From sequence record ON528733: 40,156 nt of DNA, one strand, 5' to 3'. The notes beneath the pieces are model-generated. The model was not told the DNA's origin, did not search any database, and saw nothing but the letters and a program-made list of their open reading frames with translations. How positions within the stretch are numbered: position 1 is the stretch's first letter; each line of letters begins with the position of its first letter. A program made the translations under genes and the position numbers. The stretch comes from Shigella phage ESh23. Below are positions 1 to 39,966 of the stretch, one piece after another.

Positions 1-518
1 AGGCCAAGGCTGAGGGTGCTGCCATCGACGCTCAGAACAGACAGGCTCAGGAGATGATTAAGCAGATGAACTACTCTGACGCCAACCTCACTATGCAGGA
101 ACGAGACCTTAAGGAGCAACAGGTAGCTGAGCTTACCGAGACAACTCTGAATGGTATTCGCAATCAGGGCATGGTCCGTGCAGCAGTGGCTGAGTCTGGT
201 CTTGAAGGCAACTCCATGAAACGCATTGAGCGCTCAGTGGAAGGCGACACCGTGAAAGAACGTGCTGGCATCACCGAAAGTTACAACCGCGACTATGCGG
301 CTATCTTCGGGAACCGTATTGCCAACATCGAGAACACCAAGTCTGCCATCAAGGGTCAGGCCAAAATCATCAAGACCAGCCCTCTGGCTCACGCACTTAA
401 TGTCACCTCTGCTGGTATGCAGGGCTACATGGCTGGGGAATCTCTGGCTGCGTCTAAGCCGTCTGGCGGTGCTGCTCCAATTAGTGCTGCTAAAGGCACA
501 CCTACAGGTCATAGCTAA
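1..518 (+). CDS. internal virion protein B (T7 gp14-like), C-terminal part; the N-terminal 23 codons lie at 40087..40156 (circular permutation)
   Basis: ORF is open from window position 1 in the frame of ORF 54..518; joined to 40087..40156 it gives about 195 aa (T7 gp14 is 196 aa); synteny directly upstream of gp15. Confidence 0.8.
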   Translation, partial: AKAEGAAIDAQNRQAQEMIKQMNYSDANLTMQERDLKEQQVAELTETTLNGIRNQGMVRAAVAESGLEGNSMKRIERSVEGDTVKERAGITESYNRDYAAIFGNRIANIENTKSAIKGQAKIIKTSPLAHALNVTSAGMQGYMAGESLAASKPSGGAAPISAAKGTPTGHS

Positions 519-529
519 TAGGAGGACCA

Positions 530-2812: not shown

Positions 2813-2817
2813 TAACA

Positions 2818-5800
2818 ATGGCGACTCGTGGTATTCGCAACAATAACATCGGGAACATTCGTGTTTCCAAAGACCAGTGGGAAGGAGCTACAGGAGACGA
2901 TGGGTCTTTCGTAACGTTCGACACTCCTGACTCTGGCGTCCGCGCTCTGGCGAAGAACCTGATGTCCTACGGTCGCCAAGGCTACGACTCAATCGAGAAG
3001 ATTATCAACCGATGGGCACCACCTAGCGAGAACGACACCCAGTCTTACATCTACTCTGTGGTTGCTGCTACTGGCATCCCGGCGACCCAAAGTATCGACT
3101 TGACGAACCCTGATGTCCTCGCCTCTCTGTCTGAGGCTATCGGCTACCACGAGACTGGTTCCCGGTATGACCCTGAGGTCTACAAGCTCGGAGTCTCTCG
3201 CGCCTTAAGTGGTGCTGGAGGCATCACCACAAAGACCCCACCAGTAAGCGCTAACGTCTTCGACGCTCTCACGGAGGGCTTGAAGTCTAAACCTAAAGTC
3301 GCTCTGGGAGAGAACCTTCCGGGCGTTACTGGTATGAACATCGAAGGTCAGGAACCTGAGGCTCCTAACGAGTCTTTCGGAGAGATGTTCTATAAGTCAA
3401 CTGGCGAGACGCTGGACCAAAGAGCTGACCGCTCTACATGGTTCGGCTTCGGTGGAGCTGCTGAGGCTGAAGTGAAGAACTCTCTGGTTGGCGTGGCTGT
3501 CCGCGCTGGTCAGACTGAGGACTCGCTCGATGTCATTGGCGATGTGTTTAACCCTACCCGCTGGAATAACCACAAGTGGTCCCGCGAGGAGTTAGACCAG
3601 ATTCGTAACGCTGGGGTACTTCCTCAGTATTACGGAGTCATCACTGGTGGTTCGCCTCAGAATCTGACCGAGCTGATTAACTTGGCGCTGGAGAACCAGA
3701 AGTTAGACGCTGAGAAGGCTAAGGCCGGGACTGGCGCTCAACTGGCGGCTGGTGTGATTGGTGCTGGCGTGGACCCACTGACCTATGTTCCTATTGCCGG
3801 ACAGGTAGGTAAAGGCGGTAAGCTGGTTAACAAGATGTTCACCGTGGCTGCTCAGTCTGGTGCGTTGGCTGGCGTGTCTGAGATTGCTCGTACCTCTGTT
3901 GCTGGTGGTGATGCTCACGTTGCCGAGGCAATTATGGGCGGTGCTCTATTCGGTGGTGGCATGACTGCTATCGGGGACGCTCTTGGCAAGGTTCTTGGAA
4001 AGTCGACCAATGAGTTCGCTGGTCCAGCTACACGTCTTGAGGCACGTGAGACTGCTCGCAACGTTGATGGTCAGGACCTGTCGCGTCTACCAATCCGTGA
4101 AGGAGAGGAGACCTTCAGTCACCAAGGCGTTAAGTTTGCTGACGTTCCTAACGAGCCGGGAAGTGTGCGACTGGAAGATGGTTCAATCCTGATTGGCGAG
4201 AACCCACTGAACCCTAAGACACGCCAAGTCTTCGACGAGGTGATTGAGCCTGAACGTGCTGCTGCTGGTGTAAACCTTGGTGGACTTACCGAGATTGGCT
4301 TGAAGCTCTTGAGGTCTGAGAACCCTGAGATTCGCGGACTTGCCGCTGACTTGGTGCGTTCCCCTACAGGTATGCAGTCAGGTGCGAGCGGGAAGATTGG
4401 GACTACAGCGTCAGACGTATTCGAGCGACTTCGTGCAGTGGACCATCGGTTCTACAACGACATCGACGATGCGGTGACTGAGGCCCTGAAGGACCCGTAC
4501 TTCCAGACCAACTTCAACCGTGACACTGGGGCTTTCCGTCAGGACATCTACCAGCGTGTGGCTTTGGCTATCGAGGACGGAAGCGGGAACCTGAAGTCTG
4601 AGCTGACTCCGGGCGAACTGAAGGTCTACGACCTGCTGAAGAACCAGTTCGACGCTAAGCGTGAGATGATGGAGAACCCTGCGATGTTCGGTCGGGCGGA
4701 CGCTAAGACCATCTTCCCCGGCAGCCGCTTCAAGGGGACATACGTTCCTCACGTCTACAGCAACCAGATGAAGGAGCTGTACATCAAGGAGCTTGGAAGC
4801 CCTGAGGCGCTGCAAGAAGCAATCAAGAAGTCGTGGCTCACGAGCTATGCGTCAAGACCTGAGGTCAAAGCTCGGGTGGATGAGGCCCTGATGGAAGCTG
4901 ACCCTAATCTGACTCCAGAAGGACTTGCGGCTGCGGTGGATAAGTACGCCAATGATAAGGCTTACGGTATCTCTCACACCGACCTATTCGAGCGCTCGTC
5001 TGTCATGGAAGAGAACATCAACGGTCTGGTGGGTCTGGAGAACAACAACTTCCTTGAGGCCCGTAACCTGTTCGATAGCGATATGTCTATCATCCTGCCA
5101 AACGGTCAACCGTTCAATGTGAACAGTCTCCGTGAGTGGGACATGGATAAGATTGTCCCGGCGTACAACCGTCGAGTCAATGGGGACATTGCTATCATGG
5201 CTGGGACCGGGAAGACCACGAAGGAGATGAAGGACGCCGTAGAGACCCTGATGAACCGTGCTGGTGATGACGGTAAGCTGAAGGGTGAAGTCTCTACATT
5301 GCGTGACACCCTGAAGATTCTGACTGGTCGTGCTCGACGTGATGGTGCAGACGATGCGGCCTTCTCTACTGTGATGCGCACCATGACAGACCTGTCCTTC
5401 TTCGCCAAGAACGCCTATATGGGGGTACAGAACTTGACGGAGATTGGCGGTATGCTGGCCCGTGGTAACGTCCGTGCGATGCTGCATGGTATTCCTATCT
5501 TCCGTGACCTAGCCTTCCGTAGCAAGAAGATGGGAGCCTCGGAGATTAAGGAGCTTCATAACGTGGTCTTCGGAAAGGAGCTTGACGACTCAATCCGTCC
5601 GTCCAAACAGGATGTCATCGACCGCCTGCGAGCGTACAGCGACCTGAGTAAACCAGTAGCTACCGCTTTAGGTTCTGCCAAGTATTACACTGGGGAACTT
5701 GCGGTCCGCTCTCCGTTTACGAAGGTCCTGAACGGGACGACTAACTACCTGCTGGATGCTGGACGTCAAGGCTTCCTGTCTGACATCGTGGAGCACAGCC

Positions 5801-6714
5801 TGACCGGAAGTAAGCGTAAGTTTGATGACCGCTGGTTGAAGACCGCTGGTATTTCGGACGAGCAGTGGAAGGGCATTAAGTCCCTCATCCGTGAGTCAGT
5901 GACTCGTGGTCCAGACGGGAAGTACACCATCAAGGATAAGAAGGCGTTCAGTCAGGACCCAAGGTCTATGGACCTCTGGCGTATGGGTGATGCCATCGCT
6001 GACGAGACCCTGCTCCGTCCGCACAAGCTGAGCAACATGGATGCCAAGGCGTATGGACCTCTGGCGAAGACTGTCTTGCAGTTTAAGAACTTCGTCATCA
6101 AGTCCATCAACGGTCGAACCATGCGTACCTTCTACAATGCCACCAAGAACAACCGAGCGATGGACGCTGCGCTGTCAACGGTTATGTCTATGGGTCTGGC
6201 TGGAATGTACTACATGGCTCAGGCGCACATCAAGGCTTACGCTATGCAGGACGGTCGTGACCGAGAGTATCTGAAGCAAGCCCTTAACCCGACAATGATT
6301 GGCTATGCTGCTCTGTCCCGTAGCTCCCACTTAGGTGGTCCTCTTGGGGTCGCCAACATTCTGGGCGGAATCGCTGGGTATGAGGACACTAAGATGCTCC
6401 GCTCGTCAATCCTTCCACGCTCACCTACCGAGAAACCTGAACGTGCTATTACCTATGGCGCTGCGAAGAGTGACCCGGTGATGAATGTGGTCGGTAACTT
6501 CCTTGAGCAGGTTCCGGCTTTTGGATACGCCGCTAACGTTGGTGCTTCGGCCTACAACTTGGCTGGATACCTGAAGGCTGATACCAGAGTGAACGAACGA
6601 GACTACATGACCGGGATGTATAACACTTTCCGAGAGCTGGTCCCGAACGACCCTATCACTCAGAAGCTCCTGTTGGGAACCTTTGAGGAACAAGGCATTC
6701 ACATCAAGGACTAA
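2818..6714 (+). CDS. internal virion protein D (T7 gp16-like), 1298 aa, with a divergent N-terminal domain
   Basis: From about residue 190 onward collinear with recalled T7 gp16 (e.g. TGGSPxNL, AGxIGAGVDPL, VRSPTGMQSGASGK, PHVY, ARRxNGDIAIMG motifs); first ~150 aa do not match the T7 transglycosylase domain. Confidence 0.9.
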   Translation: MATRGIRNNNIGNIRVSKDQWEGATGDDGSFVTFDTPDSGVRALAKNLMSYGRQGYDSIEKIINRWAPPSENDTQSYIYSVVAATGIPATQSIDLTNPDVLASLSEAIGYHETGSRYDPEVYKLGVSRALSGAGGITTKTPPVSANVFDALTEGLKSKPKVALGENLPGVTGMNIEGQEPEAPNESFGEMFYKSTGETLDQRADRSTWFGFGGAAEAEVKNSLVGVAVRAGQTEDSLDVIGDVFNPTRWNNHKWSREELDQIRNAGVLPQYYGVITGGSPQNLTELINLALENQKLDAEKAKAGTGAQLAAGVIGAGVDPLTYVPIAGQVGKGGKLVNKMFTVAAQSGALAGVSEIARTSVAGGDAHVAEAIMGGALFGGGMTAIGDALGKVLGKSTNEFAGPATRLEARETARNVDGQDLSRLPIREGEETFSHQGVKFADVPNEPGSVRLEDGSILIGENPLNPKTRQVFDEVIEPERAAAGVNLGGLTEIGLKLLRSENPEIRGLAADLVRSPTGMQSGASGKIGTTASDVFERLRAVDHRFYNDIDDAVTEALKDPYFQTNFNRDTGAFRQDIYQRVALAIEDGSGNLKSELTPGELKVYDLLKNQFDAKREMMENPAMFGRADAKTIFPGSRFKGTYVPHVYSNQMKELYIKELGSPEALQEAIKKSWLTSYASRPEVKARVDEALMEADPNLTPEGLAAAVDKYANDKAYGISHTDLFERSSVMEENINGLVGLENNNFLEARNLFDSDMSIILPNGQPFNVNSLREWDMDKIVPAYNRRVNGDIAIMAGTGKTTKEMKDAVETLMNRAGDDGKLKGEVSTLRDTLKILTGRARRDGADDAAFSTVMRTMTDLSFFAKNAYMGVQNLTEIGGMLARGNVRAMLHGIPIFRDLAFRSKKMGASEIKELHNVVFGKELDDSIRPSKQDVIDRLRAYSDLSKPVATALGSAKYYTGELAVRSPFTKVLNGTTNYLLDAGRQGFLSDIVEHSLTGSKRKFDDRWLKTAGISDEQWKGIKSLIRESVTRGPDGKYTIKDKKAFSQDPRSMDLWRMGDAIADETLLRPHKLSNMDAKAYGPLAKTVLQFKNFVIKSINGRTMRTFYNATKNNRAMDAALSTVMSMGLAGMYYMAQAHIKAYAMQDGRDREYLKQALNPTMIGYAALSRSSHLGGPLGVANILGGIAGYEDTKMLRSSILPRSPTEKPERAITYGAAKSDPVMNVVGNFLEQVPAFGYAANVGASAYNLAGYLKADTRVNERDYMTGMYNTFRELVPNDPITQKLLLGTFEEQGIHIKD

Positions 6715-6731
6715 ACTATCACTATAGGAAA
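6712..6731 (+). promoter_or_regulatory. phage RNAP promoter (phi17 position): TAAACTATCACTATAGGAAACG
   Basis: One of 12 copies of the conserved 17-19 nt motif; sits between gp16 stop and tail fibre start. Confidence 0.7.
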
Positions 6732-6772
6732 CGGGAGTGCTACCATAGGCTCCCATTTAATTCAACACTTAA

Positions 6773-9280
<2,508 letters not shown>

Positions 9281-16410: not shown

Positions 16411-16487
16411 TCAAGGTCGAAAGACTCTAAGTCAGGACTGAAGTGAAAGACTTTAGTGATAAGACAACAGTTATAAGGACTTTAAGT

Positions 16488-19169
16488 ATGAGCGTCATCT
16501 CAATTGACAAACACGACTTCTCTGATGTGTCGAATGCAATCGAACCTTTCAACGTACTGGCGGACCACTACGGGCAAGACCTCGCAGTCAAACAGCTCCA
16601 GCTAGAGCATGAGGCATACACTGAAGGTGAGCGACGTTTCATTAAGAACCTTGAGCGTCAGACTGAGCGCGGGGAACTGGCAGACAATCAGGTTGCTAAG
16701 CCACTGATGCAAACGCTGGTCCCAACCATCGCTAAGGCTGTGCGTGAGTGGCATGAAGGCCCGGACGGTAAGTCCTCGACCTCTCGCCCAAGCGTAGCGT
16801 TTACCATGCTGAGCACTGACGAGAAGGCTGTCAAAGACCGCTCTCTGCGCATCTCTCCAGAGTCCGCTGCGGTCATCATACTGAAGGTCATTCTCAGCAA
16901 GCTGGTCAAGCCTGAGGGCATCCCGATAACTCCTATGGCGTCCGCGATAGGTCGCACACTGGAAGATGAAATCCGCTTTGGTCGAATCCGTGAGCAGGAG
17001 CAGGAGCATTTCAAGAAGACCATAGCGGAGAACCTGAAGAAACGCGCTGGCGCAAGCTACAAGAAGGCCTACATGCAGGCAGTCGAGGCGTCTATGCTTG
17101 AGCAGGGACAACTGGCTGACGCGTGGGGGACTTGGAGTCCGACCGAGGCAGTTCATGTAGGCATAAAGATGCTAGAGCTGGTCATCCAGTCATCGCAACT
17201 GGTCGAGCTGAAGCGCTACGGTGCAGGCAATGCTGCGGTAGACGTCGAGATGGTTCACCTGTCTGACTTCTGGGTCAAGAAGATGGCTCAGCGTGGCTTC
17301 TCTCTGGCTGGAATTTCCCCAGTTTACCAGCCCTGCGTCGTGCCACCTAAGCCGTGGACCGGGGTGGTTGGCGGTGGGTACTGGGCTAAGGGTCGCAGGC
17401 CACTCCCTCTGATTCGCTTAGGGTCTAAGGCTGCGGTCCAGCGCTACGAAGACGTGTACATGCCTGAAGTGTATGAGGCAGTGAACATCATTCAGCAGAC
17501 TCCTTGGAAGGTAAACAAGAAGGTGCTGGAAGTGGTGAACATGGTCGAGAAGCTGAATAACACGCCTATCGCTGACATCCCTCAGATGGAGCCGCTGAAG
17601 CCTGAAGACTATGCGGGTGAGACCGAGGAGGAGCTTAAGGCTTGGAAGAAATCTGCGGCTGGCATCTATCGACGCGAGAAGGCCCGACAGTCTCGCCGTT
17701 TATCGCTGAGCTTCATCGTCTCACAGGCTAACAAGTTCTCTCAGTTCAAGGCCATATGGTTCCCGTACAACATGGACTGGCGAGGTCGTGTTTACGCAGT
17801 CCCGATGTTCAACCCTCAGGGCAACGATATGCAGAAGGGCCTGCTGACTCTGGCGGTAGGCAAGCCAATCGGTGCGGACGGCTTCAAATGGCTGAAGGTA
17901 CACGGTGCAAACTGCGCGGGTGTAGATAAAGTCACCTTTGAGGAGCGCATCAAGTGGGTTGAGGACAACCACGACAACATCCTAGCGACTGCTAAGAGTC
18001 CGATGGATAGCATTGACTGGTGGGGCCAGTTAGACTCTCCGTTCTGCTTCCTCGCGTTCTGCTTTGAGTATGCCGGGGTTATGCACCACGGGCTGAGCTA
18101 CTCCTGCTCTCTGCCTATCGCGTTCGATGGGTCCTGCTCTGGGATTCAGCACTTCAGCGCTATGCTCCGTGACCACGTTGGTGGACATGCGGTAAACCTG
18201 ACGCCTTCCGGTAAGGTCCAAGACATCTACCGCATTGTGTCCGACCGGGTGGAAGAACAGCTCAAGGAGCTGCTGGTCAACGGCAGTGACAACGAGGTGA
18301 AGACCTTCGAGGACAAGAAGACAGGCGAGATTACTGAACGTCTGGTCCTTGGGACCCGTGAGCTGGCCCGACAGTGGCTGACCTACGGGATGTCACGCTC
18401 GGTCACTAAACGCTCGGTAATGACTCTGGCCTATGGGTCGAAGGAATACGGGTTCGCGGACCAAGTGTTTGAGGATACCGTGATGCCAGCGATTGATAGT
18501 GGCAAGGGAGCAATGTTCACGGACCCAAGCCAAGCGTCTCGCTTCATGGCTAAGATGATATGGGACGCTGTGAGTGTGACCGTAGTGGCTGCGGTGGATG
18601 CAATGAAGTGGCTTCAGGGTGCGGCTAAACTGCTGGCTGCCGAGGTCAAGGACAAGAAGACCAAAGAGGTCCTTAAGCCTTGCCTTCCGGTTCACTGGGT
18701 AACACCTGATGGCTTCCCGGTATGGCAGGAATACCGCAAGAAAGACACAACGCGCCTGAATCTACTGTTCCTTGGGTCGTTCAACCTGCAACCGACAGTC
18801 AATAAGGGGTCGAAGAAAGAGCTGGACAAGCACAAGCAGGAGTCCGGTATCAGCCCTAACTTTGTACACTCACAGGATGGCAGTCACCTGAGGAAGACTG
18901 TGGTCCACACCCACCGCAAGTATGGCGTGATGTCCTTCGCGGTGATTCACGACAGCTTTGGGACCATACCAGCAGACGCTGAGTTCCTGTTCAAGGGAGT
19001 CCGTGAGACGATGGTCGAGACCTACCGCGACAACGATGTGCTGCAAGACTTCTACGAGCAGTTCGCGGACCAGCTTCACGAGAGCCAGCGCGACAAGTTG
19101 CCTGAGCTGCCTAAGCGCGGTAAACTGAACATCGAAGACATTCTGTTATCTGACTTTGCATTCGCCTGA
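16488..19169 (+). CDS. single-subunit DNA-directed RNA polymerase (T7 gp1-like), 893 aa
   Basis: Collinear with recalled T7 RNAP from N-terminus (DFSDxxxAxxPFNxLADHYG) to C-terminus (LHESQxDKxPxLPxxGxLNxxDILxSDFAFA); ATG 16488 preferred over GTG 16443. Confidence 0.97.
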   Translation: MSVISIDKHDFSDVSNAIEPFNVLADHYGQDLAVKQLQLEHEAYTEGERRFIKNLERQTERGELADNQVAKPLMQTLVPTIAKAVREWHEGPDGKSSTSRPSVAFTMLSTDEKAVKDRSLRISPESAAVIILKVILSKLVKPEGIPITPMASAIGRTLEDEIRFGRIREQEQEHFKKTIAENLKKRAGASYKKAYMQAVEASMLEQGQLADAWGTWSPTEAVHVGIKMLELVIQSSQLVELKRYGAGNAAVDVEMVHLSDFWVKKMAQRGFSLAGISPVYQPCVVPPKPWTGVVGGGYWAKGRRPLPLIRLGSKAAVQRYEDVYMPEVYEAVNIIQQTPWKVNKKVLEVVNMVEKLNNTPIADIPQMEPLKPEDYAGETEEELKAWKKSAAGIYRREKARQSRRLSLSFIVSQANKFSQFKAIWFPYNMDWRGRVYAVPMFNPQGNDMQKGLLTLAVGKPIGADGFKWLKVHGANCAGVDKVTFEERIKWVEDNHDNILATAKSPMDSIDWWGQLDSPFCFLAFCFEYAGVMHHGLSYSCSLPIAFDGSCSGIQHFSAMLRDHVGGHAVNLTPSGKVQDIYRIVSDRVEEQLKELLVNGSDNEVKTFEDKKTGEITERLVLGTRELARQWLTYGMSRSVTKRSVMTLAYGSKEYGFADQVFEDTVMPAIDSGKGAMFTDPSQASRFMAKMIWDAVSVTVVAAVDAMKWLQGAAKLLAAEVKDKKTKEVLKPCLPVHWVTPDGFPVWQEYRKKDTTRLNLLFLGSFNLQPTVNKGSKKELDKHKQESGISPNFVHSQDGSHLRKTVVHTHRKYGVMSFAVIHDSFGTIPADAEFLFKGVRETMVETYRDNDVLQDFYEQFADQLHESQRDKLPELPKRGKLNIEDILLSDFAFA

Positions 19170-32429: not shown

Positions 32430-33998
32430 ATGGCTGAACGTGAAGGCTTCGCTGCTGAAGGAGCCAAAGCGGTCTATGACCGACTGAAGAACGGACGACA
32501 GCCGTATGAGACCCGTGCTCAGAACTGCGCTGCTGTCACCATACCGTCGCTGTTTCCGAAAGAGTCTGACAACTCCTCAACCGAGTATACGACTCCGTGG
32601 CAGGCGGTGGGCGCTCGCTGTCTGAACAACCTCGCTGCTAAGCTGATGCTGGCCCTGTTCCCGCAAGCCCCGTGGATGAGACTTACCGTCTCTGAATATG
32701 AGGCAAAGGCCTTGAGTCAAGACTCCGAGGCTGCTGCCCGTGTTGACGAGGGGCTGGCTATGGTCGAGCGTGTCCTGATGGCCTACATGGAGACTAACAG
32801 TTTCCGTGTACCGCTGTTCGAGGCACTTAAGCAACTTATCGTCGCAGGCAACTGTCTACTGTACGTTCCTGAACCTGAGCAAGGGACCTATAGTCCTATG
32901 CGCATGTATCGTCTGGTCTCCTATGTGGTCCAGCGTGATGCGTTCGGTAACGTGCTCCAGATTGTCACCCTCGACAAGGTGGCGTATAGCGCACTGCCGG
33001 AAGACGTTAAGTCTCAGCTAAACGCTGATGACTACGAGCCGGACACCGAGCTGGAAGTCTACACGCACATCTATCGTCAGGACGATGAGTACCTGCGATA
33101 TGAGGAAGTGGAGGGCATAGAGGTGAAAGGGACCGATGGTTCCTACCCGCTGAATGCCTGTCCTTACATCCCAGTACGAATGGTTCGACTGGATGGTGAA
33201 GACTATGGTCGTTCTTACTGCGAGGAATATCTGGGAGACCTGAACTCGCTGGAGACGATTACAGAAGCTATCACCAAAATGGCTAAGGTAGCCTCCAAAG
33301 TGGTGGGCCTCGTTAACCCGAACGGTATCACGCAACCTCGACGTCTGAACAAGGCGTCTACAGGTGAGTTCGTGGCGGGTCGAGTAGAGGACATCAACTT
33401 CCTGCAACTGACGAAGGGTCAGGACTTTACGATTGCTAAGTCGGTGGCTGACGCTATCGAGCAACGTTTAGGCTGGGCCTTCCTTCTTAATAGTGCTGTT
33501 CAGCGTAATGCTGAGCGAGTAACTGCTGAAGAGATTCGTTATGTTGCTGGCGAACTGGAGGCGACCTTAGGTGGCGTGTACTCTGTGCAGTCTCAGGAGA
33601 TGCAGTTACCTCTGGTCCGTGTGCTGTTGAACCAGCTTCAGTCCGCTGGCATGATTCCTGACCTTCCGAAAGAAGCGGTAGAGCCTACGGTCTCCACTGG
33701 TCTGGAAGCGTTGGGGCGCGGTCAGGACTTGGAGAAGCTGACTCAGGCTGTGAACATGATGACTGGACTTCAGCCTCTGGCTCAGGACCCGGACATTAAC
33801 TTGCCTACCCTTAAGCTGCGACTTCTCAACGCTCTGGGTATCGACACATCCGGTCTACTCCTGACGCAGGACGAGAAGATTCAGCGCATGGCTGAGCAGT
33901 CGTCTCAAAATGCAGTAGTCCAAGGTGCGGGTGCTGCTGGTGCTAACATGGGCGCTGCTGTTGGTCAAGGGGCTGGTGAGGATATGGCTCAGGCTTAA
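32430..33998 (+). CDS. head-to-tail connector / portal protein (T7 gp8-like), 522 aa
   Basis: Long collinear matches to recalled T7 gp8 (PYETRAQNCA, IPSLFPK, TPWQAVGAR, YRLxSYVVQRDAFGNVLQ, RMVRLDGExYGRSY, AEEIRYVAxELE, VEPTxSTGLEAxGRGQDL). Confidence 0.97.
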   Translation: MAEREGFAAEGAKAVYDRLKNGRQPYETRAQNCAAVTIPSLFPKESDNSSTEYTTPWQAVGARCLNNLAAKLMLALFPQAPWMRLTVSEYEAKALSQDSEAAARVDEGLAMVERVLMAYMETNSFRVPLFEALKQLIVAGNCLLYVPEPEQGTYSPMRMYRLVSYVVQRDAFGNVLQIVTLDKVAYSALPEDVKSQLNADDYEPDTELEVYTHIYRQDDEYLRYEEVEGIEVKGTDGSYPLNACPYIPVRMVRLDGEDYGRSYCEEYLGDLNSLETITEAITKMAKVASKVVGLVNPNGITQPRRLNKASTGEFVAGRVEDINFLQLTKGQDFTIAKSVADAIEQRLGWAFLLNSAVQRNAERVTAEEIRYVAGELEATLGGVYSVQSQEMQLPLVRVLLNQLQSAGMIPDLPKEAVEPTVSTGLEALGRGQDLEKLTQAVNMMTGLQPLAQDPDINLPTLKLRLLNALGIDTSGLLLTQDEKIQRMAEQSSQNAVVQGAGAAGANMGAAVGQGAGEDMAQA

Positions 33999-34015
33999 CT
34001 ATCACTATAGGAACA
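33995..34015 (+). promoter_or_regulatory. phage RNAP promoter (phi9 position): TTAACTATCACTATAGGAACA
   Basis: Conserved promoter motif. Confidence 0.7.
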
Positions 34016-34102
34016 ACGGGACACACATTCACCGCGAGTGTGCCACTGGGAGCTACCATACTCTGTCCCGTAACCTATTAACTACCAAAGGAGAACGACT
34101 CA

Positions 34103-34984
34103 ATGTCCCAATCAGTTTATGCCGAGTTCGGAGTTAGTCCTAATGCAATCACTGGTTCCGTTGAGGACCTGAACGAACACCAGCGGTCTATGCTCGAACA
34201 GGACGTAGCAGTTCGCGATGGCGATGATGCTATTACCTTCAAGCAACTGGAAGCCGAGAACGAAGAGGCTACCGAAGAAGACGATAACGTCGAAGAGACT
34301 GAAGGTGATGATACCGAAGGTAACGACGATGAGTATGATACCGAAGGTGAGGACCAAGAGTTTGTCGAACTGGGTGAAACTCCTAAAGAGCTGACCGAAA
34401 GTGTCACCGCCCTGAACGAGAACGAAGCTGCATTCGACGACATGGTGTCTGCTGCTGTAGAGGCTGGCAAGGTCACTGCTGACGACATCACCGCTATTAA
34501 GGCCGAATACGCCTCTAAAGGTGAGCTATCCGAGGCATCCTATGCTAAGCTGGCTGAAGCTGGTTACACAAAGCGTTTCGTCGATTCATTCGTCCGTGGT
34601 CAGGAAGCTCTGGCTGAGCAGTATGCTGCTGGTGTGGTTCGCTACGCTGGTGGGGCTGAGCAGTTTAACCGAATCCTGTCACATCTTGAGGCTAACGATA
34701 AGTCCACCAAGGAAGCCCTTGAGTCTGCAATCATCCGTAAGGACCTTGCGACCGCTAAGGCTATCCTGAATCTGGCTGGTCGTAACCTCGGTAAGACCCG
34801 TGGCGTTGCACCTCAGCGAACCCTGACTACTCAAGGTAAGCCAGCGGTATCCGCACCGAAGGTCAAGACCGAAGGTTTCAGCTCCAAGGCCGATATGGTC
34901 AAGGCGATGAGTGACCCACGCTACCTGCGTGACGCGAAGTACACAATGGAGGTACGCGCTAAGGTTGCAGCGTCTAGTCTGTAA
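34103..34984 (+). CDS. capsid assembly (scaffolding) protein (T7 gp9-like), 293 aa
   Basis: Acidic; VRDGDDAI, SYAKLAExGYTK, FVRGQEALAEQY, KAMSDPRY match recalled T7 gp9. Confidence 0.95.
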   Translation: MSQSVYAEFGVSPNAITGSVEDLNEHQRSMLEQDVAVRDGDDAITFKQLEAENEEATEEDDNVEETEGDDTEGNDDEYDTEGEDQEFVELGETPKELTESVTALNENEAAFDDMVSAAVEAGKVTADDITAIKAEYASKGELSEASYAKLAEAGYTKRFVDSFVRGQEALAEQYAAGVVRYAGGAEQFNRILSHLEANDKSTKEALESAIIRKDLATAKAILNLAGRNLGKTRGVAPQRTLTTQGKPAVSAPKVKTEGFSSKADMVKAMSDPRYLRDAKYTMEVRAKVAASSL

Positions 34985-34990
34985 GAGGAC

Positions 34991-35013
34991 TAAACTATCA
35001 CTATAGGGAGACC
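34991..35013 (+). promoter_or_regulatory. phage RNAP promoter (phi10 position): TAAACTATCACTATAGGGAGACC, followed by a 5' leader hairpin (GAGACC...GGTCTC, 35008..35034)
   Basis: Best match to the T7 class III initiation region CACTATAGGGAGACCAC. Confidence 0.85.
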
Positions 35014-35114
35014 ACGAGTATGACTCAAGGTCTCCTGTAACTTCAGTCCATACGGATTGGGCATAGCGAAGTAACTAAACTTTATTTCTTTCATTCGAAT
35101 AGGAGAATTATCAT

Positions 35115-36164
35115 ATGGCAAACGTTCCGGGTCAGAAAATTGGTGCAGACCAAGGTAAGGGCAAATCTAGTGCAGACCAGCTCGCACTGTTCCTTAAGGT
35201 CTTCGCTGGTGAAGTCCTGACAGCTTTCACTCGCCGCTCTGTTACCGCTGATAAGCATATTGTCCGCACCATTCAGAATGGTAAGTCCGCACAGTTCCCG
35301 GTAATGGGTCGCACCTCCGGTGTGTATCTTGCTCCCGGTGAGCGCCTGAGCGATAAGCGCAAGGGTATTAAACACACTGAGAAGGTTATCACCATTGATG
35401 GTCTGCTGACAGCTGACGTGATGATTTTCGACATCGAAGACGCCATGAACCACTATGACGTGGCTGGCGAGTATTCCAACCAGCTCGGTGAGGCTCTGGC
35501 TATCGCTGCTGATGGCGCGGTACTGGCTGAGATGGCGATTCTGTGTAACCTCCCGGCTGCATCCGACGAGAACATCGCTGGTCTGGGCAAGGCGTCCGTT
35601 CTGGAAGTTGGTACTAAAGCAGACCTGAACACTCCAGCCAAGCTGGGTGAAGCAATCATCGGTCAACTGACCATCGCACGTGCTAAGCTGACTGCCAACT
35701 ACGTGCCTGCTGGCGACCGCTACTTCTATACTACGCCTGACAACTACTCCGCGATTCTGGCGGCTCTGATGCCTAACGCTGCTAACTACGCTGCGCTGAT
35801 TGACCCTGAGACGGGTAACATCCGTAACGTAATGGGCTTCGTTGTGGTTGAAGTGCCTCACCTGACTCAGGGTGGTGCTGGCGAAACCCGTGGCGACGAT
35901 GGTATCTCCATTGCTTCCGGTCAGAAACACGCATTCCCGGCTACCTCCAGCTCTACCGTTAAGGTTGCTCTGGACAACGTTGTGGGTCTGTTCTCTCACC
36001 GTTCTGCTGTCGGTACTGTTAAGCTGCGCGACTTGGCGCTGGAACGTGACCGCGACGTCGATGCTCAGGGCGACCTGATTGTCGGTAAGTACGCTATGGG
36101 TCACGGCGGTCTGCGTCCAGAAGCGGCAGGCGCACTGGTTTTCAAGGCAGCGTCAGCGGGTTAA
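35115..36164 (+). CDS. major capsid protein 10A (T7 gp10A-like), 349 aa
   Basis: LALFLKVFxGEVLTAF, KSAQFPVxGRT, KVITIDGLLTADV, DIEDAMNHYDV, ALMPNAANYAALIDPE, HRSAVGTVKLRDLALER, KYAMGHGGLRPEAAGA. Confidence 0.97.
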   Translation: MANVPGQKIGADQGKGKSSADQLALFLKVFAGEVLTAFTRRSVTADKHIVRTIQNGKSAQFPVMGRTSGVYLAPGERLSDKRKGIKHTEKVITIDGLLTADVMIFDIEDAMNHYDVAGEYSNQLGEALAIAADGAVLAEMAILCNLPAASDENIAGLGKASVLEVGTKADLNTPAKLGEAIIGQLTIARAKLTANYVPAGDRYFYTTPDNYSAILAALMPNAANYAALIDPETGNIRNVMGFVVVEVPHLTQGGAGETRGDDGISIASGQKHAFPATSSSTVKVALDNVVGLFSHRSAVGTVKLRDLALERDRDVDAQGDLIVGKYAMGHGGLRPEAAGALVFKAASAG

Positions 36165-36427
36165 TGACCTTTAAGGCCCTCTCTACAGAGGGTCCTACCT
36201 TAGAGACATACAGTTCTACGGTGGGAACCAGCTTGAAGGTTGACTTCCCTGAGCTTTCAGACGTGACCGATTGGTCGCTGCTTGAGGTGACTACGCCTGA
36301 TGGTGTTAGCTACTCCCGTAGAACCAACAGTCTCTACTTCAAGGCCACCTCTGGCGTGGAAGGTCTGGTGATTGTTGGGTATGACGGTACGCCTGTGCGT
36401 TCCTTCAACGTATCTTTCACAAACTAA
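35115..36427 (+). CDS. minor capsid protein 10B produced by programmed -1 ribosomal frameshift at GGTTTTC (36137..36143), adding a ~94-aa C-terminal extension
   Basis: T7-type slippery heptamer GGTTTTC 7 codons before the 10A stop; the -1 frame is open from there through track ORF 36164..36427 and ends directly before the Tphi-like terminator. Confidence 0.6.
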
Positions 36428-36433
36428 TTGAAA

Positions 36434-36469
36434 CCCCTTGGGTGCCTTCGGGTGCTTGAGGGGTTTTTT
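36434..36469 (+). terminator. Tphi-like intrinsic terminator (long GC-rich hairpin with UUCG loop + TTTTTT)
   Basis: CCCCTTGGGTGCCTTCGGGTGCTTGAGGGGTTTTTT closely parallels T7 Tphi (AACCCCTTGGGGCCTCTAAACGGGTCTTGAGGGGTTTTTTG). Confidence 0.85.
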
Positions 36470-36484
36470 GCTTAAGGAGGGCCT

Positions 36485-37051
36485 ATGGCTCAATACATTC
36501 CGCTTAACGCTAATGACGACTTGGATGCTGTTAACGATATGCTGGCTGCTATCGGTGAACCAGCAGTCCTACAGCTTGACGAAGGTAACGCAGACGTATC
36601 AAACGCACAGCGCATCCTGCATCGAGTCAATCGTCAGGTCCAAGCTAAAGGCTGGAACTTTAACATCAACGAGTCTGCCATACTCACACCGGATGTCCAA
36701 GACCAAAGGATTCGATTCCTCCCGTCTTACCTCCGGGTCATGACTGCTGGAGCTACCAGCTACTACAGTAACATGGGTGGCTATCTCTACGACCTCAGCA
36801 CTCAGTCGACAACCTTCACTGGGCCGATTACAGTCGAGCTGGTTGAGATGAAGCCGTTCTCAGAGATGCCTGTGGTCTTCCGTGACTACATCGTGACCAA
36901 GGCCAGCCGAGAGTTCAACGCTAAGTTCTTCGGAAGCCCAGAGTCTGAGGCCTATCTGCGGGAGCAGGAAGCAGAGCTGTACCAGCAGGTGATGGAGTAC
37001 GAGATGGACACCGGGCGCTACAACATGATGTCTGACATCGGTCGAGACTAA
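36485..37051 (+). CDS. tail tubular protein A (T7 gp11-like), 188 aa
   Basis: AVNDxLAxIGEP, NAxRILxxxNRQxQxxGWxFNI, FRxYIVTKASRxFN, MEYEMD match recalled T7 gp11. Confidence 0.95.
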   Translation: MAQYIPLNANDDLDAVNDMLAAIGEPAVLQLDEGNADVSNAQRILHRVNRQVQAKGWNFNINESAILTPDVQDQRIRFLPSYLRVMTAGATSYYSNMGGYLYDLSTQSTTFTGPITVELVEMKPFSEMPVVFRDYIVTKASREFNAKFFGSPESEAYLREQEAELYQQVMEYEMDTGRYNMMSDIGRD

Positions 37052-37062
37052 TAGGAGGTGAT

Positions 37063-39432
37063 ATGCCACTTTACACGCAATCAATCAAGAACCTGAAGGG
37101 TGGCATTAGCCAACAGCCGGACATCCTGAGGTTCTCTGACCAAGGTGAACAGCAGATTAACGGCTGGTCATCCGAGAGTGATGGGCTTCAGAAGCGACCA
37201 CCGACCGTCTGGAAGAAAAGACTTTCAGCCGTGAACTGGGTCATCCCGAACAACGCTAAGTTCCACCTGATTAACAGGGACGAGAACGAGCAGTATTACA
37301 TCGTCTTCACAGGAAAGGAAATCATGGTCTTTGACCTTGAGGGGAACCAGTACGCTGTTTCAGGTGTAACGGACTACGTTAACACTTCCAAGCCGCGTGA
37401 CGACATCCGGGTCATTACAGTAGCTGACTACACGTTCGTGGTGAATCGCCGCACTGTGGTAGCTCAGGGTTCCACTAAAGCTAACCCTACGTACAACATG
37501 AAGAACCGCGCACTGATTAACCTTCGTGGTGGTCAGTACGGTAGATTGCTGAAAGTAGGGATTAATGGTGGGACAAAGGTTGGGCACCAGCTTCCTCCGG
37601 GAGATAACGCCAAAGATGACCCACCTAAAGTCGACGCTCAGGCTATCGGCAAGGCGTTAGTGGACCTGCTTGTCGTGGCCTATCCGAACTACACGTTCAC
37701 CCTTGGGTCTGGCTACATCGAGATTAAAGCCCCAGCAGGGACCAACATCAACTCGGTGGAGACTGAGGATGGTTATGCCAACCAGCTAATCAATGCTGTA
37801 CTTGATACTGTGCAGACTATCAGTAAGCTACCTCTGGCGGCACCTGAAGGCTACATCATCCGTATTCAAGGTGAGACCAACAGCTCAGCCGATGAGTATT
37901 TCGTGAAGTATGACTCAGCGAAGAAGACTTGGCGCGAGACTGTGGAGCCGGGTACTGTAACGGGATTCGACGCCTCAACCATGCCACACGCTTTGGTCAG
38001 ACAGGCAGATGGGAACTTTACGTTCCAGACCCTAGACTGGACTGAGCGTGGAGCTGGTAACGACGAGACCAACCCGATGCCGAGCTTCGTGAATTCAACG
38101 ATTAACGATGTGTTCTTCTATCGTAACCGATTAGGGTTCCTCTCCGGTGAGAACGTCATTATGTCCCGGTCCGCTGGATACTTTGCGTTCTTCCCTAAGA
38201 GCGTGGCGACCCTCAGTGATGATGACCCGATTGATGTGGCTGTGAGTCACCCTCGAATCTCCATCCTGAAGTATGCTGTACCGTTCGCAGAACAGCTACT
38301 GCTGTGGTCTGATGAGGTGCAGTTCGTGATGACCAGCTCCGGGGTACTGACCGCCAAGTCCATCCAACTAGATGTTGGCTCTGAGTTCGCTGTTAGTGAT
38401 AATGCGCGACCGTTCGCCATTGGACGTTCAGTCTTCTTCGCTGCCCCTCGCGGCTCGTTCACCAGTATTAACCGTTACTTTGCGGTGGCTGACGTTACGG
38501 ACGTGAAGGACGCAGACGATACGACCGGGCATGTGCTGTCCTACATTCCTAATGGAGTATTCGACATCCAAGGGTCCTCTACTGAGAACTTCATCACCGT
38601 GTCTACTGAGGGCGCTCCGAACAAGCTGTTCATCTACAAGTTCCTCTTCAAGGATGGCGTACAGCTTCAAGCCTCGTGGTCACACTGGGAGCTGGAGCAG
38701 GGCGAGCAGATTATGGCCTCAGCCTGTATCGGGTCCGCTATGTACATCGTGCGTAAGCATGGCTATGGCGTGGACTTGGAGAAGCTGGAGTTCATCAAGG
38801 AGACTGTGGACATCGCTGGCGAACCATGCCGCCTGCATCTTGACGGCAAAACCACTATGGTCATCCCGACTAACGCATTCAACCCTAACACATACACCTC
38901 GTCCTTCGACGTTGGCGCTGCCTATGGTGGAGTTTTCCCACCAGCAGGGAAGTACGTCATGGTAGACTCCAGTGGGCGATTCGTCCAACTGCCAGATACC
39001 GTATGGTCCAGCACTCGGTGGGTGACTGTGAAGGGGGACTGGTCAGGCAAGACAGTGTTCCTTGGTCGCGTCTATAAGTTCACCTACGCCTTCTCTCGGT
39101 TCCTCATTAAGTATGAAGACCAGAACGGGACGGTGACGGAAGACTCCGGTCGACTTCAGCTTCGCCGCGCTTGGGTGAACTATCAGCGAACTGGTGCTCT
39201 GGTGATGCGGGTCGTCAACCAGCACCGTGAGTTCCTGAACACGCTGAACGGCTACAAGCTGGGCCTACAGGACATCGGTCGGGTAAACATTGGTGACGGT
39301 CAGTTCAGGTTCCCAATGAACGGAGATGCTCTACACACTCGGTTAATCCTTGAGTCAGATTATCCGACCCCAGTGTCTATCGTTGGTTGCGGCTGGGAGG
39401 CTTCATATGCCCGTAAAGCCAAAGCTATCTAA
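37063..39432 (+). CDS. tail tubular protein B (T7 gp12-like), 789 aa
   Basis: QSIKNLKGGISQQPDILR, NGWSSE, GLQKRPP, HLINRDExEQYY, VTVADYTFVVNR, MPHALVR, SINDVFFxRNRLGFLSGEN, RLQLRRAWVNY, IxGCGWE. Confidence 0.96.
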   Translation: MPLYTQSIKNLKGGISQQPDILRFSDQGEQQINGWSSESDGLQKRPPTVWKKRLSAVNWVIPNNAKFHLINRDENEQYYIVFTGKEIMVFDLEGNQYAVSGVTDYVNTSKPRDDIRVITVADYTFVVNRRTVVAQGSTKANPTYNMKNRALINLRGGQYGRLLKVGINGGTKVGHQLPPGDNAKDDPPKVDAQAIGKALVDLLVVAYPNYTFTLGSGYIEIKAPAGTNINSVETEDGYANQLINAVLDTVQTISKLPLAAPEGYIIRIQGETNSSADEYFVKYDSAKKTWRETVEPGTVTGFDASTMPHALVRQADGNFTFQTLDWTERGAGNDETNPMPSFVNSTINDVFFYRNRLGFLSGENVIMSRSAGYFAFFPKSVATLSDDDPIDVAVSHPRISILKYAVPFAEQLLLWSDEVQFVMTSSGVLTAKSIQLDVGSEFAVSDNARPFAIGRSVFFAAPRGSFTSINRYFAVADVTDVKDADDTTGHVLSYIPNGVFDIQGSSTENFITVSTEGAPNKLFIYKFLFKDGVQLQASWSHWELEQGEQIMASACIGSAMYIVRKHGYGVDLEKLEFIKETVDIAGEPCRLHLDGKTTMVIPTNAFNPNTYTSSFDVGAAYGGVFPPAGKYVMVDSSGRFVQLPDTVWSSTRWVTVKGDWSGKTVFLGRVYKFTYAFSRFLIKYEDQNGTVTEDSGRLQLRRAWVNYQRTGALVMRVVNQHREFLNTLNGYKLGLQDIGRVNIGDGQFRFPMNGDALHTRLILESDYPTPVSIVGCGWEASYARKAKAI

Positions 39433-39458
39433 CTAATTGAATGGCCTATAGTTTCAAC

Positions 39459-39479
39459 TTAACTATCACTATAGGGACT
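39459..39479 (+). promoter_or_regulatory. phage RNAP promoter (phi13 position): TTAACTATCACTATAGGGACT, bracketed by a 9-bp inverted repeat (39443..39451 / 39478..39486)
   Basis: Conserved promoter motif; GGCCTATAG and CTATAGGCC read directly. Confidence 0.7.
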
Positions 39480-39507
39480 ATAGGCCCTTTAAGTTATAGG
39501 AGACTTT

Positions 39508-39966
39508 ATGTATATTCGTAAGGCTACTGAACCAGATGTTCACTACCTATTGGGACATCTCTCACAGGATGACGTTAATGAGTGCATGGCAAACTTCGGG
39601 TCGACCAAAGGTCTGACCGACAGAATGCTCAGCCACCTCACTCCGTCATCTGTGGTTTTGACGAATGGCGTAGGCGAAGTGTTTGCCTATGGAGGGAACC
39701 AAGGAGATAACGTGTGGTTCCTGACTTCAAGTCTTGTCGAAAGGTTACGTCCTAAAGACAAGCGTGAGTTCATTCAGCGCATCTCTGAGTACAGGGACTT
39801 AATGTTAGACCAATACGGGACCATCTGGAACTACGTGTGGTCAGGCAACAAGTCTCACATTAGATTCTTGCGGTTGCTGGGAGCTAAGTTTCACCCTGAG
39901 GTGACTATTAGTCCGGTAACAGGTGAGCGTTTTCAACTATTCACAATCTCTAAGGAGGACGTATGA
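39508..39966 (+). CDS. internal virion/assembly protein (T7 gp13 position), 152 aa
   Basis: Synteny between tail tube B and gp14; SD AGGAG; sequence identity to T7 gp13 not confirmed from memory. Confidence 0.6.
   Translation: MYIRKATEPDVHYLLGHLSQDDVNECMANFGSTKGLTDRMLSHLTPSSVVLTNGVGEVFAYGGNQGDNVWFLTSSLVERLRPKDKREFIQRISEYRDLMLDQYGTIWNYVWSGNKSHIRFLRLLGAKFHPEVTISPVTGERFQLFTISKEDV

What the first reader, a model, noticed from the sequence alone, without database searches (positions are those of the whole stretch)
36137..36427. Programmed -1 frameshift in the capsid gene with an unusually long, beta-rich extension
The T7-type slippery site GGTTTTC lies 7 codons before the 10A stop, and the -1 frame is open for 94 further codons up to the Tphi terminator. 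The predicted extension (…TFKALSTEGPTLETYSSTVGTSLKVDFPELSDVTDWSLLEVTTPDGVSYSRRTNSLYFKATSGVEGLVIVGYDGTPVRSFNVSFTN) has the alternating pattern of an Ig-like decoration domain and is clearly longer than the ~50-aa T7 10B tail. It would display a folded domain on a subset of capsid subunits.
Basis: partly seen in the sequence, partly recalled or inferred. Interest (0 to 1): 0.5.

Follow-up and report, generated by a model that had tools for sequence, protein, structure and literature searches.

The report
T7-type capsid frameshift, Ig-like tail

Summary
GGTTTTC occurs once in the window (36137-36143), in the register G_GTT_TTC, and its TTC is the 7th codon before the 10A stop. The -1 frame stays open for 94 more codons, to a TAA at 36425-36427 that lies 2 nt before the T-phi hairpin. 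The window is a permuted Kayfunavirus genome, about 98% identical to Citrobacter phage SH4.

In all 30 loci from five Studiervirinae genera that carry this extension, NGTTTTC sits in the same register and the -1 frame runs unbroken into the domain. The ATG at 36164 is ACG in most relatives and has no Shine-Dalgarno sequence. Val and Phe are always GTT and TTC, although nearby synonymous sites vary freely. The extension shows third-position-biased variation in the -1 frame.

The extension is not unusually long. T3 10B is 433 aa and carries a Big_2 domain. The same 437-aa 10B is annotated as a -1 frameshift product in phage Peacock, and a 430-aa homologue in CR8. The module occurs in 454 phage records.

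One small addition: the 112 nt after the slip site are unusually structured (z -3.5).

The parts
34995..35017 (+). phi10-type phage RNA polymerase promoter upstream of gene 10
   Evidence: The core ATCACTATAGGGAGA matches perfectly at 34997-35011. Nine promoter-like sites lie on the + strand against about 1 expected. Sequence read.
35115..36164 (+). Gene 10A, major capsid protein (349 aa, 36.4 kDa), zero frame
   Evidence: ORF. Pfam PF21703 Gp10A-like, E 3.5e-105. PHROG 267. PDB T7-like capsid chains up to E 2.8e-210. Strong SD, -7.3 kcal/mol.
36137..36143 (+). Slippery heptanucleotide G_GTT_TTC, the same sequence and register as in T7 gene 10
   Evidence: Unique in the window. NGTTTTC is in the same register in 30/30 loci that carry the extension. 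Val is always GTT and Phe always TTC in 25 unique non-T3 sequences, while neighbouring Ala/Gly third positions use 3 bases each.
36143..36427 (+). -1 frame segment of 10B: 94 codons plus TAA. The fused product is 437 aa, 46.0 kDa
   Evidence: PHROG 7473, E 6.8e-37. tblastn hits in 454 phage records.
36143..36199 (+). Linker, extension residues 1-19: predicted disordered, variable, and overlapping the last 6 codons of 10A
   Evidence: AF2 pLDDT <50 for residues 1-3 and 7-17. 11 of 21 sites are variable in the overlap, at all codon positions. The linker differs completely between genera but never contains a stop.
36200..36424 (+). Ig-like beta-sandwich domain, extension residues 20-94, seven strands
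36164..36166 (+). ATG overlapping the 10A stop (TAATG): the rival start for an independent 87-aa product
   Evidence: Present here and in the PE3-1/LS2-type phages. It is ACG in most Kayfunavirus relatives. SD energy is -2.8 kcal/mol, which is background level.
36149..36255 (+). Candidate frameshift-stimulating RNA structure: a branched fold whose first pair lies 5 nt after the heptamer. Its role is inferred, not shown
   Evidence: MFE -44.4 kcal/mol, z -3.52, 0/200 shuffles. It is in the most stable 0.45% of 112-nt windows in this genome, 0.1% after GC correction. The consensus fold is kept in 12 Kayfunavirus sequences but with little covariation.
36175..36194 (+). Core 8-bp hairpin GGCCCUCU-CUAC-AGAGGGUC inside that structure
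   Evidence: dG -12.7 kcal/mol. The pairs are conserved, with only wobble or loop changes, in relatives. A non-homologous hairpin lies at a similar offset from the slip site in Przondovirus, with two compensatory pairs.
36430..36467 (+). T-phi transcription terminator hairpin (AAACCCCUUGGG...UGAGGGGUUU), followed by a T run to about 36470
   Evidence: It aligns with T-phi of T7, T3, K1F, CR8 and a Przondovirus, and the 10B stop lies just upstream of the stem in five of those six phages (all but T3). In T7 a CCCC in this terminator is reported to be involved in frameshifting (review PMC5009743).
36485..37051 (+). Gene 11 (tail tubular protein A), the downstream neighbour; defines the end of the unit
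   Evidence: SD -12.6 kcal/mol. Annotated in relatives.

Best explanation
This is a programmed -1 ribosomal frameshift of the T7 gene-10 type. A minority of ribosomes translating the capsid mRNA slip back one base on G_GUU_UUC: the P-site tRNA-Val moves from GUU to GGU and the A-site tRNA-Phe from UUC to UUU. These ribosomes miss the 10A stop and continue for 94 codons to a TAA just before T-phi. The product is 10B (437 aa, 46 kDa). It consists of the complete HK97-fold capsid protein through F343, a flexible linker of about 20 residues, and a C-terminal Ig-like beta-sandwich of about 75 residues. 10B co-assembles with 10A, so a fraction of capsid subunits display the Ig-like domain on the outer surface. 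That domain most likely gives weak accessory adhesion to glycans on cells or mucus. What the data show: the sequence anatomy, its conservation, coding selection in the -1 frame, and a predicted Ig-like fold. What is inferred from relatives: the frameshift itself, its efficiency (about 10% in T7), incorporation into capsids, the role of the downstream RNA structure or T-phi as stimulator, and the adhesion function.
For: (1) The heptamer is identical to that of T7, in the same register and at the homologous codons (...AGA(L/V)VF...).
(2) All 30 loci that carry the extension, from Kayfuna-, Caroct-, Przondo-, Pektos- and Ningirsuvirus, keep NGTTTTC in register. All keep an unbroken -1 frame through linkers that differ completely in sequence and length.
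(3) Synonymous sites within the heptamer are frozen (GTT and TTC in 25/25 unique sequences), whereas flanking Ala/Gly third positions vary. The only GTG variant is T3, which slips elsewhere, at CCCAAAG.
(4) No gene caller ever finds an in-frame fusion, and no conserved start exists. ATG 36164 is ACG in most relatives. The candidate starts have SD energies of -2.7 to -5.6 kcal/mol, against -7.3 to -12.6 for nine of the ten real gene starts checked in this window.
(5) The 64-68-aa ORFs annotated in relatives start at residues 27 or 31 of the extension. That is after predicted beta-strand 1 (residues 22-26) and, for the 64-aa ORF, inside strand 2, so they would truncate the fold.
(6) There is purifying selection in the -1 frame: 17/12/49 variable sites at codon positions 1/2/3.
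(7) Relatives: K1F (same genus, same heptamer) gives stable fluorescent virions when GFP is fused to the -1 frame (PMC6277420). The CR8 10B record is annotated as a -1 frameshift product 'matching mass spectrometry'. Peacock 10B is annotated as a 437-aa joined CDS. Kvp1 10B was proven by MS at TTTTCA (PMC2579914).
(8) The fold is Ig-like. An Ig-like 10B tail made by frameshifting is already established for T3 (PMC5009743; Big_2 E 3.6e-10).
Confidence: 0.85

Rival explanations
1. The extension is a separate small protein (87 aa from ATG 36164, or 64-68 aa from the internal GTG/TTG, as annotated 'gp10.1/hypothetical/minor capsid protein' in most GenBank relatives). It would be made by independent initiation or by termination-reinitiation at TAATG, and would bind the capsid non-covalently.
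For: ATG 36164 overlaps the 10A stop. Most deposited relatives, and one comparative paper, treat it as a separate gene (PMC7693777). Lineages related to CR8 and EV136_1 also have an ATG a few nt after the 10A stop.
Against: The ATG is ACG in most Kayfunavirus relatives and absent in the Przondovirus, Pektosvirus and Ningirsuvirus loci. SD energy is at background level (-2.8, -2.7, -5.6 kcal/mol). The internal starts cut off predicted strand 1. Independent expression would not explain why the -1 frame stays open back to the slip site in 30/30 loci, nor why the heptamer's synonymous sites are frozen. T7 also has TAATG at the 10A stop, yet its 10B is a proven frameshift product (Condron 1991 as cited).
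Confidence: 0.08
2. The frame change happens in the mRNA: the phage RNA polymerase slips on the T4 run and makes -1 transcripts. Ribosomal slippage is not involved.
For: The site contains a T run, and the protein product would be nearly indistinguishable.
Against: Four T residues are far shorter than the homopolymer runs known to cause useful transcriptional slippage (established knowledge; review PMC5009743). The conserved element is the tandem-slippage heptamer in a fixed codon register, which matters only to ribosomes. T7 gene 10, with the same site, is treated as ribosomal frameshifting in that review.
Confidence: 0.03
3. The -1 ORF is an unexpressed relic, or the open frame and motif are there by chance.
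For: GGTTTTC alone is expected about 5 times in 80 kb of sequence. One natural relative (L028, probably phage ZG49) has lost the second half of the domain.
Against: There is strong third-position bias in the -1 frame. Protein-level conservation extends down to 42-50% identity across five genera and 454 records. The fold is predicted with confidence.
Confidence: 0.02

Closest known systems
Bacteriophage T7 gene 10A/10B -1 programmed ribosomal frameshift (Condron, Atkins & Gesteland 1991)
   Same: The heptamer G_GUU_UUC is identical and sits at the homologous codons of a homologous capsid gene. The -1 ORF ends immediately before T-phi, whose AACCCC...GGGGTTTTT stem is conserved.
   Different: The T7 tail is 57 aa after the shift. 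It is not a folded Ig-like domain and carries the LTP(A/Q)QxAARTRAAN motif. Here the tail is 94 aa and unrelated in sequence. The 112 nt after the T7 site are not unusually structured (z -0.16), whereas here z is -3.52.
Bacteriophage T3 gp10B: an Ig-like (Big_2) C-terminal extension of the capsid protein made by -1 frameshifting (Fraser et al. 2006; Atkins et al. 2016)
   Same: The overall design is the same: a capsid protein plus an Ig-like domain of about 85-90 aa reached by a -1 shift. The sizes are similar (433 vs 437 aa).
   Different: T3 slips at CCC_AAA_G, on lysine. Its domain is a Pfam Big_2 (E 3.6e-10), whereas the domain here has no Pfam match and no detectable profile similarity to it (hhalign probability 0.8%).
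Escherichia phage Peacock minor capsid protein QEG09703.1 and Citrobacter phage CR8 gp10B YP_009004195.1
   Same: The same extension family (91.5% and about 49% identity), the same heptamer, and annotation as joined -1 frameshift CDSs. Peacock 10B is also 437 aa.
   Different: None of substance. These are database annotations; I found no published characterisation of the domain.
Escherichia phage K1F gene 10b (same genus, Kayfunavirus)
   Same: The same heptamer and the same capsid. Expression of the -1 frame and its incorporation into virions were shown by a g10b::gfp fusion (PMC6277420).
   Different: The K1F tail is the short T7-like one, 48 codons after the shift. The genus therefore carries at least two alternative tails.

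Membership tests
T7-type gene 10 -1 programmed ribosomal frameshift (10A/10B) | The host gene is a homologue of T7 gp10A | tested here: met
   PF21703, E 3.5e-105. T7 10A chain 2xvr_A, E 5.3e-144.
T7-type gene 10 -1 programmed ribosomal frameshift (10A/10B) | Slippery heptamer G_GUU_UUC in the zero-frame register, a few codons before the 10A stop | tested here: met
   36137-36143, register confirmed. Homologous to the T7 site.
T7-type gene 10 -1 programmed ribosomal frameshift (10A/10B) | The -1 frame is open across the site and beyond the 10A stop, and this is conserved among relatives | tested here: met
   Open 36089-36427. 30/30 related loci.
T7-type gene 10 -1 programmed ribosomal frameshift (10A/10B) | Two capsid products sharing an N-terminus, with the minor one at about 10% and incorporated in virions | not testable with these tools
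   This needs SDS-PAGE or MS. Only relatives have data.
T7-type gene 10 -1 programmed ribosomal frameshift (10A/10B) | Dependence on a distal 3' element that includes the CCCC of T-phi | tested here: inconclusive
   A T-phi with the conserved AACCCC stem is present at 36430-36467. Its function cannot be tested. A proximal structured region is an alternative stimulator.
Phage Ig-like domains added to structural proteins by frameshifting (Fraser et al. 2006) | The added C-terminal module has an Ig-like beta-sandwich fold | tested here: met
Phage Ig-like domains added to structural proteins by frameshifting (Fraser et al. 2006) | Membership of one of the sequence families used to define the class (Pfam Big_2, I-set, FN3) | tested here: not met
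   No Pfam hit above threshold. There are only sub-threshold Big_3 hits in 3 of 19 members. hhalign against the Big_2-type 10B tails gives 0.8% probability.
PHROG 7473 (unknown function) | Significant match to the family profile over its full length | tested here: met
   E 6.8e-37, profile positions 2-82 of 82.

The most novel reading that the evidence does not exclude
The conserved slip site may act as a fixed joint at which T7-like phages exchange whole 'tail cassettes'. I found at least three classes: the short T7/K1F tail, Big_2, and the VTDWS...RRTNSLYFK Ig-like module seen here. On this reading, the cassettes that encode folded domains bring their own proximal, unusually stable RNA structure, which stimulates frameshifting. 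T7 instead relies on a distal element. The Ig-like module itself would be an undescribed glycan- or mucus-adhesion domain family, distantly related to BACON-type domains.
Probability: 0.2. Interest if true: 0.4.

Novelty: already known. Interest (0 to 1): 0.17.

Why it matters
The main value is for annotation. Most deposited relatives split this gene into a capsid protein, sometimes mislabelled 'minor capsid protein', and a 64-87-aa 'hypothetical protein' that would lack the first strand of its own fold. Reading it as 10B gives the correct virion protein: 46 kDa, with an Ig-like domain on the outside of the capsid. It also identifies a natural display site on phages that are being developed for therapy against E. 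coli, Shigella, Salmonella, Enterobacter and Klebsiella. The domain family has no Pfam model, and its ligand is unknown. The structured RNA after the slip site could help explain how gene-10 frameshifting is stimulated, which is still unclear even for T7.

Tried and rejected
- Rfam scan of 35900-36600 at a permissive threshold: only two chance-level hits.
- Pfam on the extension and on 19 family members: nothing above threshold.
- PDB sequence search with the full 10B: only capsid bodies of 328-375 aa matched, and none included the extension.
- Word-indexed protein search and exhaustive profile search for in-frame capsid-domain fusions: none found. The phage hits were all short ORFs. The distant hits (E 1e-12 to 1e-4) were multi-repeat bacterial proteins; of the five checked, only one had Pfam BACON domains. 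They matched mainly a 25-residue strand-turn-strand motif, so I treat them as a weak hint.
- Profile-profile comparison with the T3-type Big_2 tails: no relationship.
- Long-range pairing between the T-phi CCCC and a G-run after the slip site (GCGGGTT here): the G-run is not conserved in relatives, by inspection of the sequences, so I did not pursue it.
- The CR8 and Peacock genome announcements were read for protein evidence: neither discusses 10B. Condron 1991 is not held in the library.
- Covariation for the downstream structure in Kayfunavirus: the sequences are too similar to be informative.
- I did not model full-length 10B, because no deep alignment of the capsid part was available within the allowed inputs.

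Full report
**What the window is.** The 40,156-nt window is a circularly permuted, complete genome of a T7-like phage of the genus Kayfunavirus (Autographiviridae, Studiervirinae).
- The gene-10 region is 98.6% identical to Citrobacter phage SH4 and 98.1% to Cronobacter phage Dev2.
- The extension protein is 100% identical to the corresponding stretch of Shigella phage SFP21B.
- Gene 10A (35115-36164, 349 aa) is a Gp10A-like major capsid protein (PF21703, E 3.5e-105; PDB T7-like capsids).
- A perfect phage-promoter core precedes it at 34997-35011. A T-phi-type terminator (36430-36467) and then gene 11 follow it.

**Check of the observation.**
- GGTTTTC is unique in the window (36137-36143). 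Its register is G_GTT_TTC, and TTC is the 7th codon before TAA.
- The -1 frame is open from 36089 to the TAA at 36425-36427, which is 94 codons after the shift.
- The fused product is 437 aa and 46.0 kDa, against 36.4 kDa for 10A.
- The heptamer alone would be expected about five times by chance in this much sequence. The significance lies in its position and its conservation.

**Is the extension coding, and in which frame?**
- Among 16 distinct close relatives, the 60 nt before the heptamer vary only at zero-frame third positions (0/0/11 of 20 each).
- The domain part of the extension varies 17/12/49 (of 73 each) at -1-frame codon positions 1/2/3. This is clear purifying selection on the -1 reading.
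- At protein level the module is found by tblastn in 454 phage records, down to about 42% identity: Kayfunavirus, Przondovirus/KP32-like Klebsiella phages, Caroctavirus CR8, Pektosvirus PP81 and Ningirsuvirus Ninurta.

**Frameshift or separate gene?** Four lines of evidence favour the frameshift.
- Conservation. In all 30 loci that I retrieved by similarity to the extension or the region, and not by the slip site, NGTTTTC is in the same register. The -1 frame runs without a stop from the site into the domain. The intervening linker differs completely in sequence and length between lineages.
- Frozen synonymous sites. In 25 unique non-T3 sequences Val is always GTT and Phe always TTC, while the neighbouring Ala and Gly codons use three different third bases each. 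The one GTG sequence is T3, which slips at CCCAAAG instead.
- No conserved start.
  - The ATG at 36164 is ACG in most Kayfunavirus relatives and absent in several other genera.
  - The three possible starts (36164, 36221, 36233) have Shine-Dalgarno energies of -2.8, -2.7 and -5.6 kcal/mol. The genome-wide median is -2.5, and nine of the ten real gene starts checked here score -7.3 to -12.6.
- Truncated fold. The 64-68-aa ORFs that most GenBank records annotate start at extension residues 27 or 31. That is after predicted strand 1 and, for the 64-aa ORF, inside strand 2 of the domain.
- No gene caller ever reports an in-frame capsid-domain fusion, so the need for a frame change is itself conserved.

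**Experimental support from relatives only.**
- T7 has the same heptamer at the homologous codons, and its 10B is the classic case (cited).
- K1F, in the same genus and with the same heptamer, yields stable fluorescent virions when GFP is fused to the -1 frame (PMC6277420).
- Kvp1 10B was demonstrated by MS (PMC2579914).
- The CR8 record annotates 10B as a -1 frameshift product 'matching mass spectrometry'. The Peacock record annotates a 437-aa joined CDS by similarity to it.
- Proteomics of SH4, the closest relative, reported only the 36-kDa protein, and 10B is not among that paper's annotated ORFs (PMC4925675).

**What the extension is.**
- AlphaFold2 with a 19-sequence alignment gives mean pLDDT 81.6. 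Residues 1-19 are disordered. Residues 20-94 score about 90 and form seven strands.
- Foldseek's best PDB hit is the C-terminal Ig-like domain of the lambda tail tube protein (2l04, E 1e-3, TM about 0.55).
- In BFVD the only strong hit is the homologous PP81 'minor capsid protein'.
- The Ig-like reading is therefore supported at fold level with moderate scores. It is not supported at sequence-family level. There is no Pfam match, only PHROG 7473 'unknown function', and no profile similarity to the Big_2 tails of T3-type 10B.
- An exhaustive profile search found, beyond phage homologues, only weak matches to repeat proteins (one of five checked has Pfam BACON domains) over a short motif.

**Is it unusual?** No.
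- T3 10B is 433 aa with a Pfam Big_2 tail. The literature already describes Ig-like domains added to phage structural proteins by frameshifting, with T3 as the capsid example and T7 as the exception (PMC5009743).
- I scanned IMG/VR for the slip-site context. The -1 tails attached at GTTTTC fall into at least three classes:
  - short T7/K1F tails of 44-55 aa with the motif LTPQQKAA(R/I)TRA;
  - Big_2 tails of 87-89 aa;
  - the present module of 91-96 aa.
- In five of the six phages aligned (all but T3) the 10B stop lies just upstream of the conserved T-phi stem.

**RNA context.**
- The 112 nt directly after the heptamer fold to -44.4 kcal/mol, with the first pair 5 nt downstream (z -3.52; 0/200 shuffles).
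- This places the segment in the most stable 0.45% of all 112-nt windows of this genome, or 0.1% after GC correction.
- Representatives of the other folded-tail classes also score low (z -2.4 to -4.4 in 10 of 11). T7 (-0.16) and K1F (-1.76) do not.
- In Przondovirus an 18-bp hairpin a similar distance beyond the slip site is 99.5% paired. It has two compensatory pairs whose changes alter the encoded amino acids (T to V, S to P). They may reflect a single event.
- Within Kayfunavirus the structure is conserved, but the sequences are too similar to show covariation.
- I treat this as a candidate stimulator, not a demonstrated one.

**Verdict.** It describes a known mechanism in a known place with a known kind of payload, and the same product is already annotated in two relatives. 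What remains of interest is the widespread mis-annotation, the lack of a family assignment for the domain, and the possible proximal RNA stimulator.

Noticed in passing
L028 1640-1790 (IMGVR_UViG_2974604219, 40,291 bp; possibly phage ZG49, which has the same genome length): This is a natural truncation. The 10B extension is intact up to '...EVTTPE'. A deletion then joins it to the T run of T-phi, removing the second half of the Ig-like domain and the terminator stem. A new small hydrophobic ORF (MFYLLTALGLFVSFWAIILLTGPCSPYDR) with its own SD lies before gene 11. This suggests the domain is dispensable.
   Followed up: partly
L077, L132 and other IMG/VR loci, compared with window 36137-36427: At the same GTTTTC slip site, T7-like phages carry at least three unrelated -1 tails: a short T7/K1F tail, a Big_2 domain, and the module of this window. 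Big_2 tails therefore occur both at GGTTTTC and, in T3, at CCCAAAG. This suggests cassette exchange at the slip site.
   Followed up: partly
window 36021-36132: The single most stable 112-nt RNA window of the whole genome (-47.8 kcal/mol, GC 0.64) lies immediately upstream of the slip site, at the 3' end of gene 10A. Together with the structured region after the site, the frameshift site sits between two exceptionally structured segments.
   Followed up: no
window 36162-36166; T7 locus L017, at the 10A stop: The 10A stop overlaps an ATG in the 10B frame (TAATG) both here and in T7, but not in most Kayfunavirus relatives, which have TAACG. This may be coincidence, or an occasional reinitiation site.
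   Followed up: partly
window 35091-36104, minus strand: A 337-aa ORF runs antisense across almost the whole of gene 10. It is most likely a shadow ORF caused by the codon bias of the highly expressed capsid gene.
   Followed up: no
GenBank relatives, loci L002, L004, L012, L014: Annotation is inconsistent. The 349-aa 10A is labelled 'minor capsid protein' in some records (Ro103C3lw, IME278). The short downstream ORF is labelled 'minor capsid protein' in others (NS1, PP81, KP32 isolate 196). Of the 15 extension-carrying GenBank records inspected, only CR8 and Peacock annotate the joined frameshift CDS.
   Followed up: yes
proteins P0033-P0051: The extension profile weakly matches multi-repeat bacterial surface proteins. 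One (P0033) has BACON/BACON_2 domains and a Por secretion tail. The matches lie mainly over the RRTNSLYFK...G.V.V strand-turn-strand motif. This could reflect distant homology or convergence of Ig-like repeats.
   Followed up: partly
window, whole length: The window is a circular permutation of a complete genome of about 40 kb. Genes 14-17 are at 54-9280, the RNA polymerase at 16443-19169, and genes 8-13 at 32430-39966. Nine phage-promoter-like sites, all on the + strand, match ATCACTATAGGGAGA with at most 3 mismatches.
   Followed up: no
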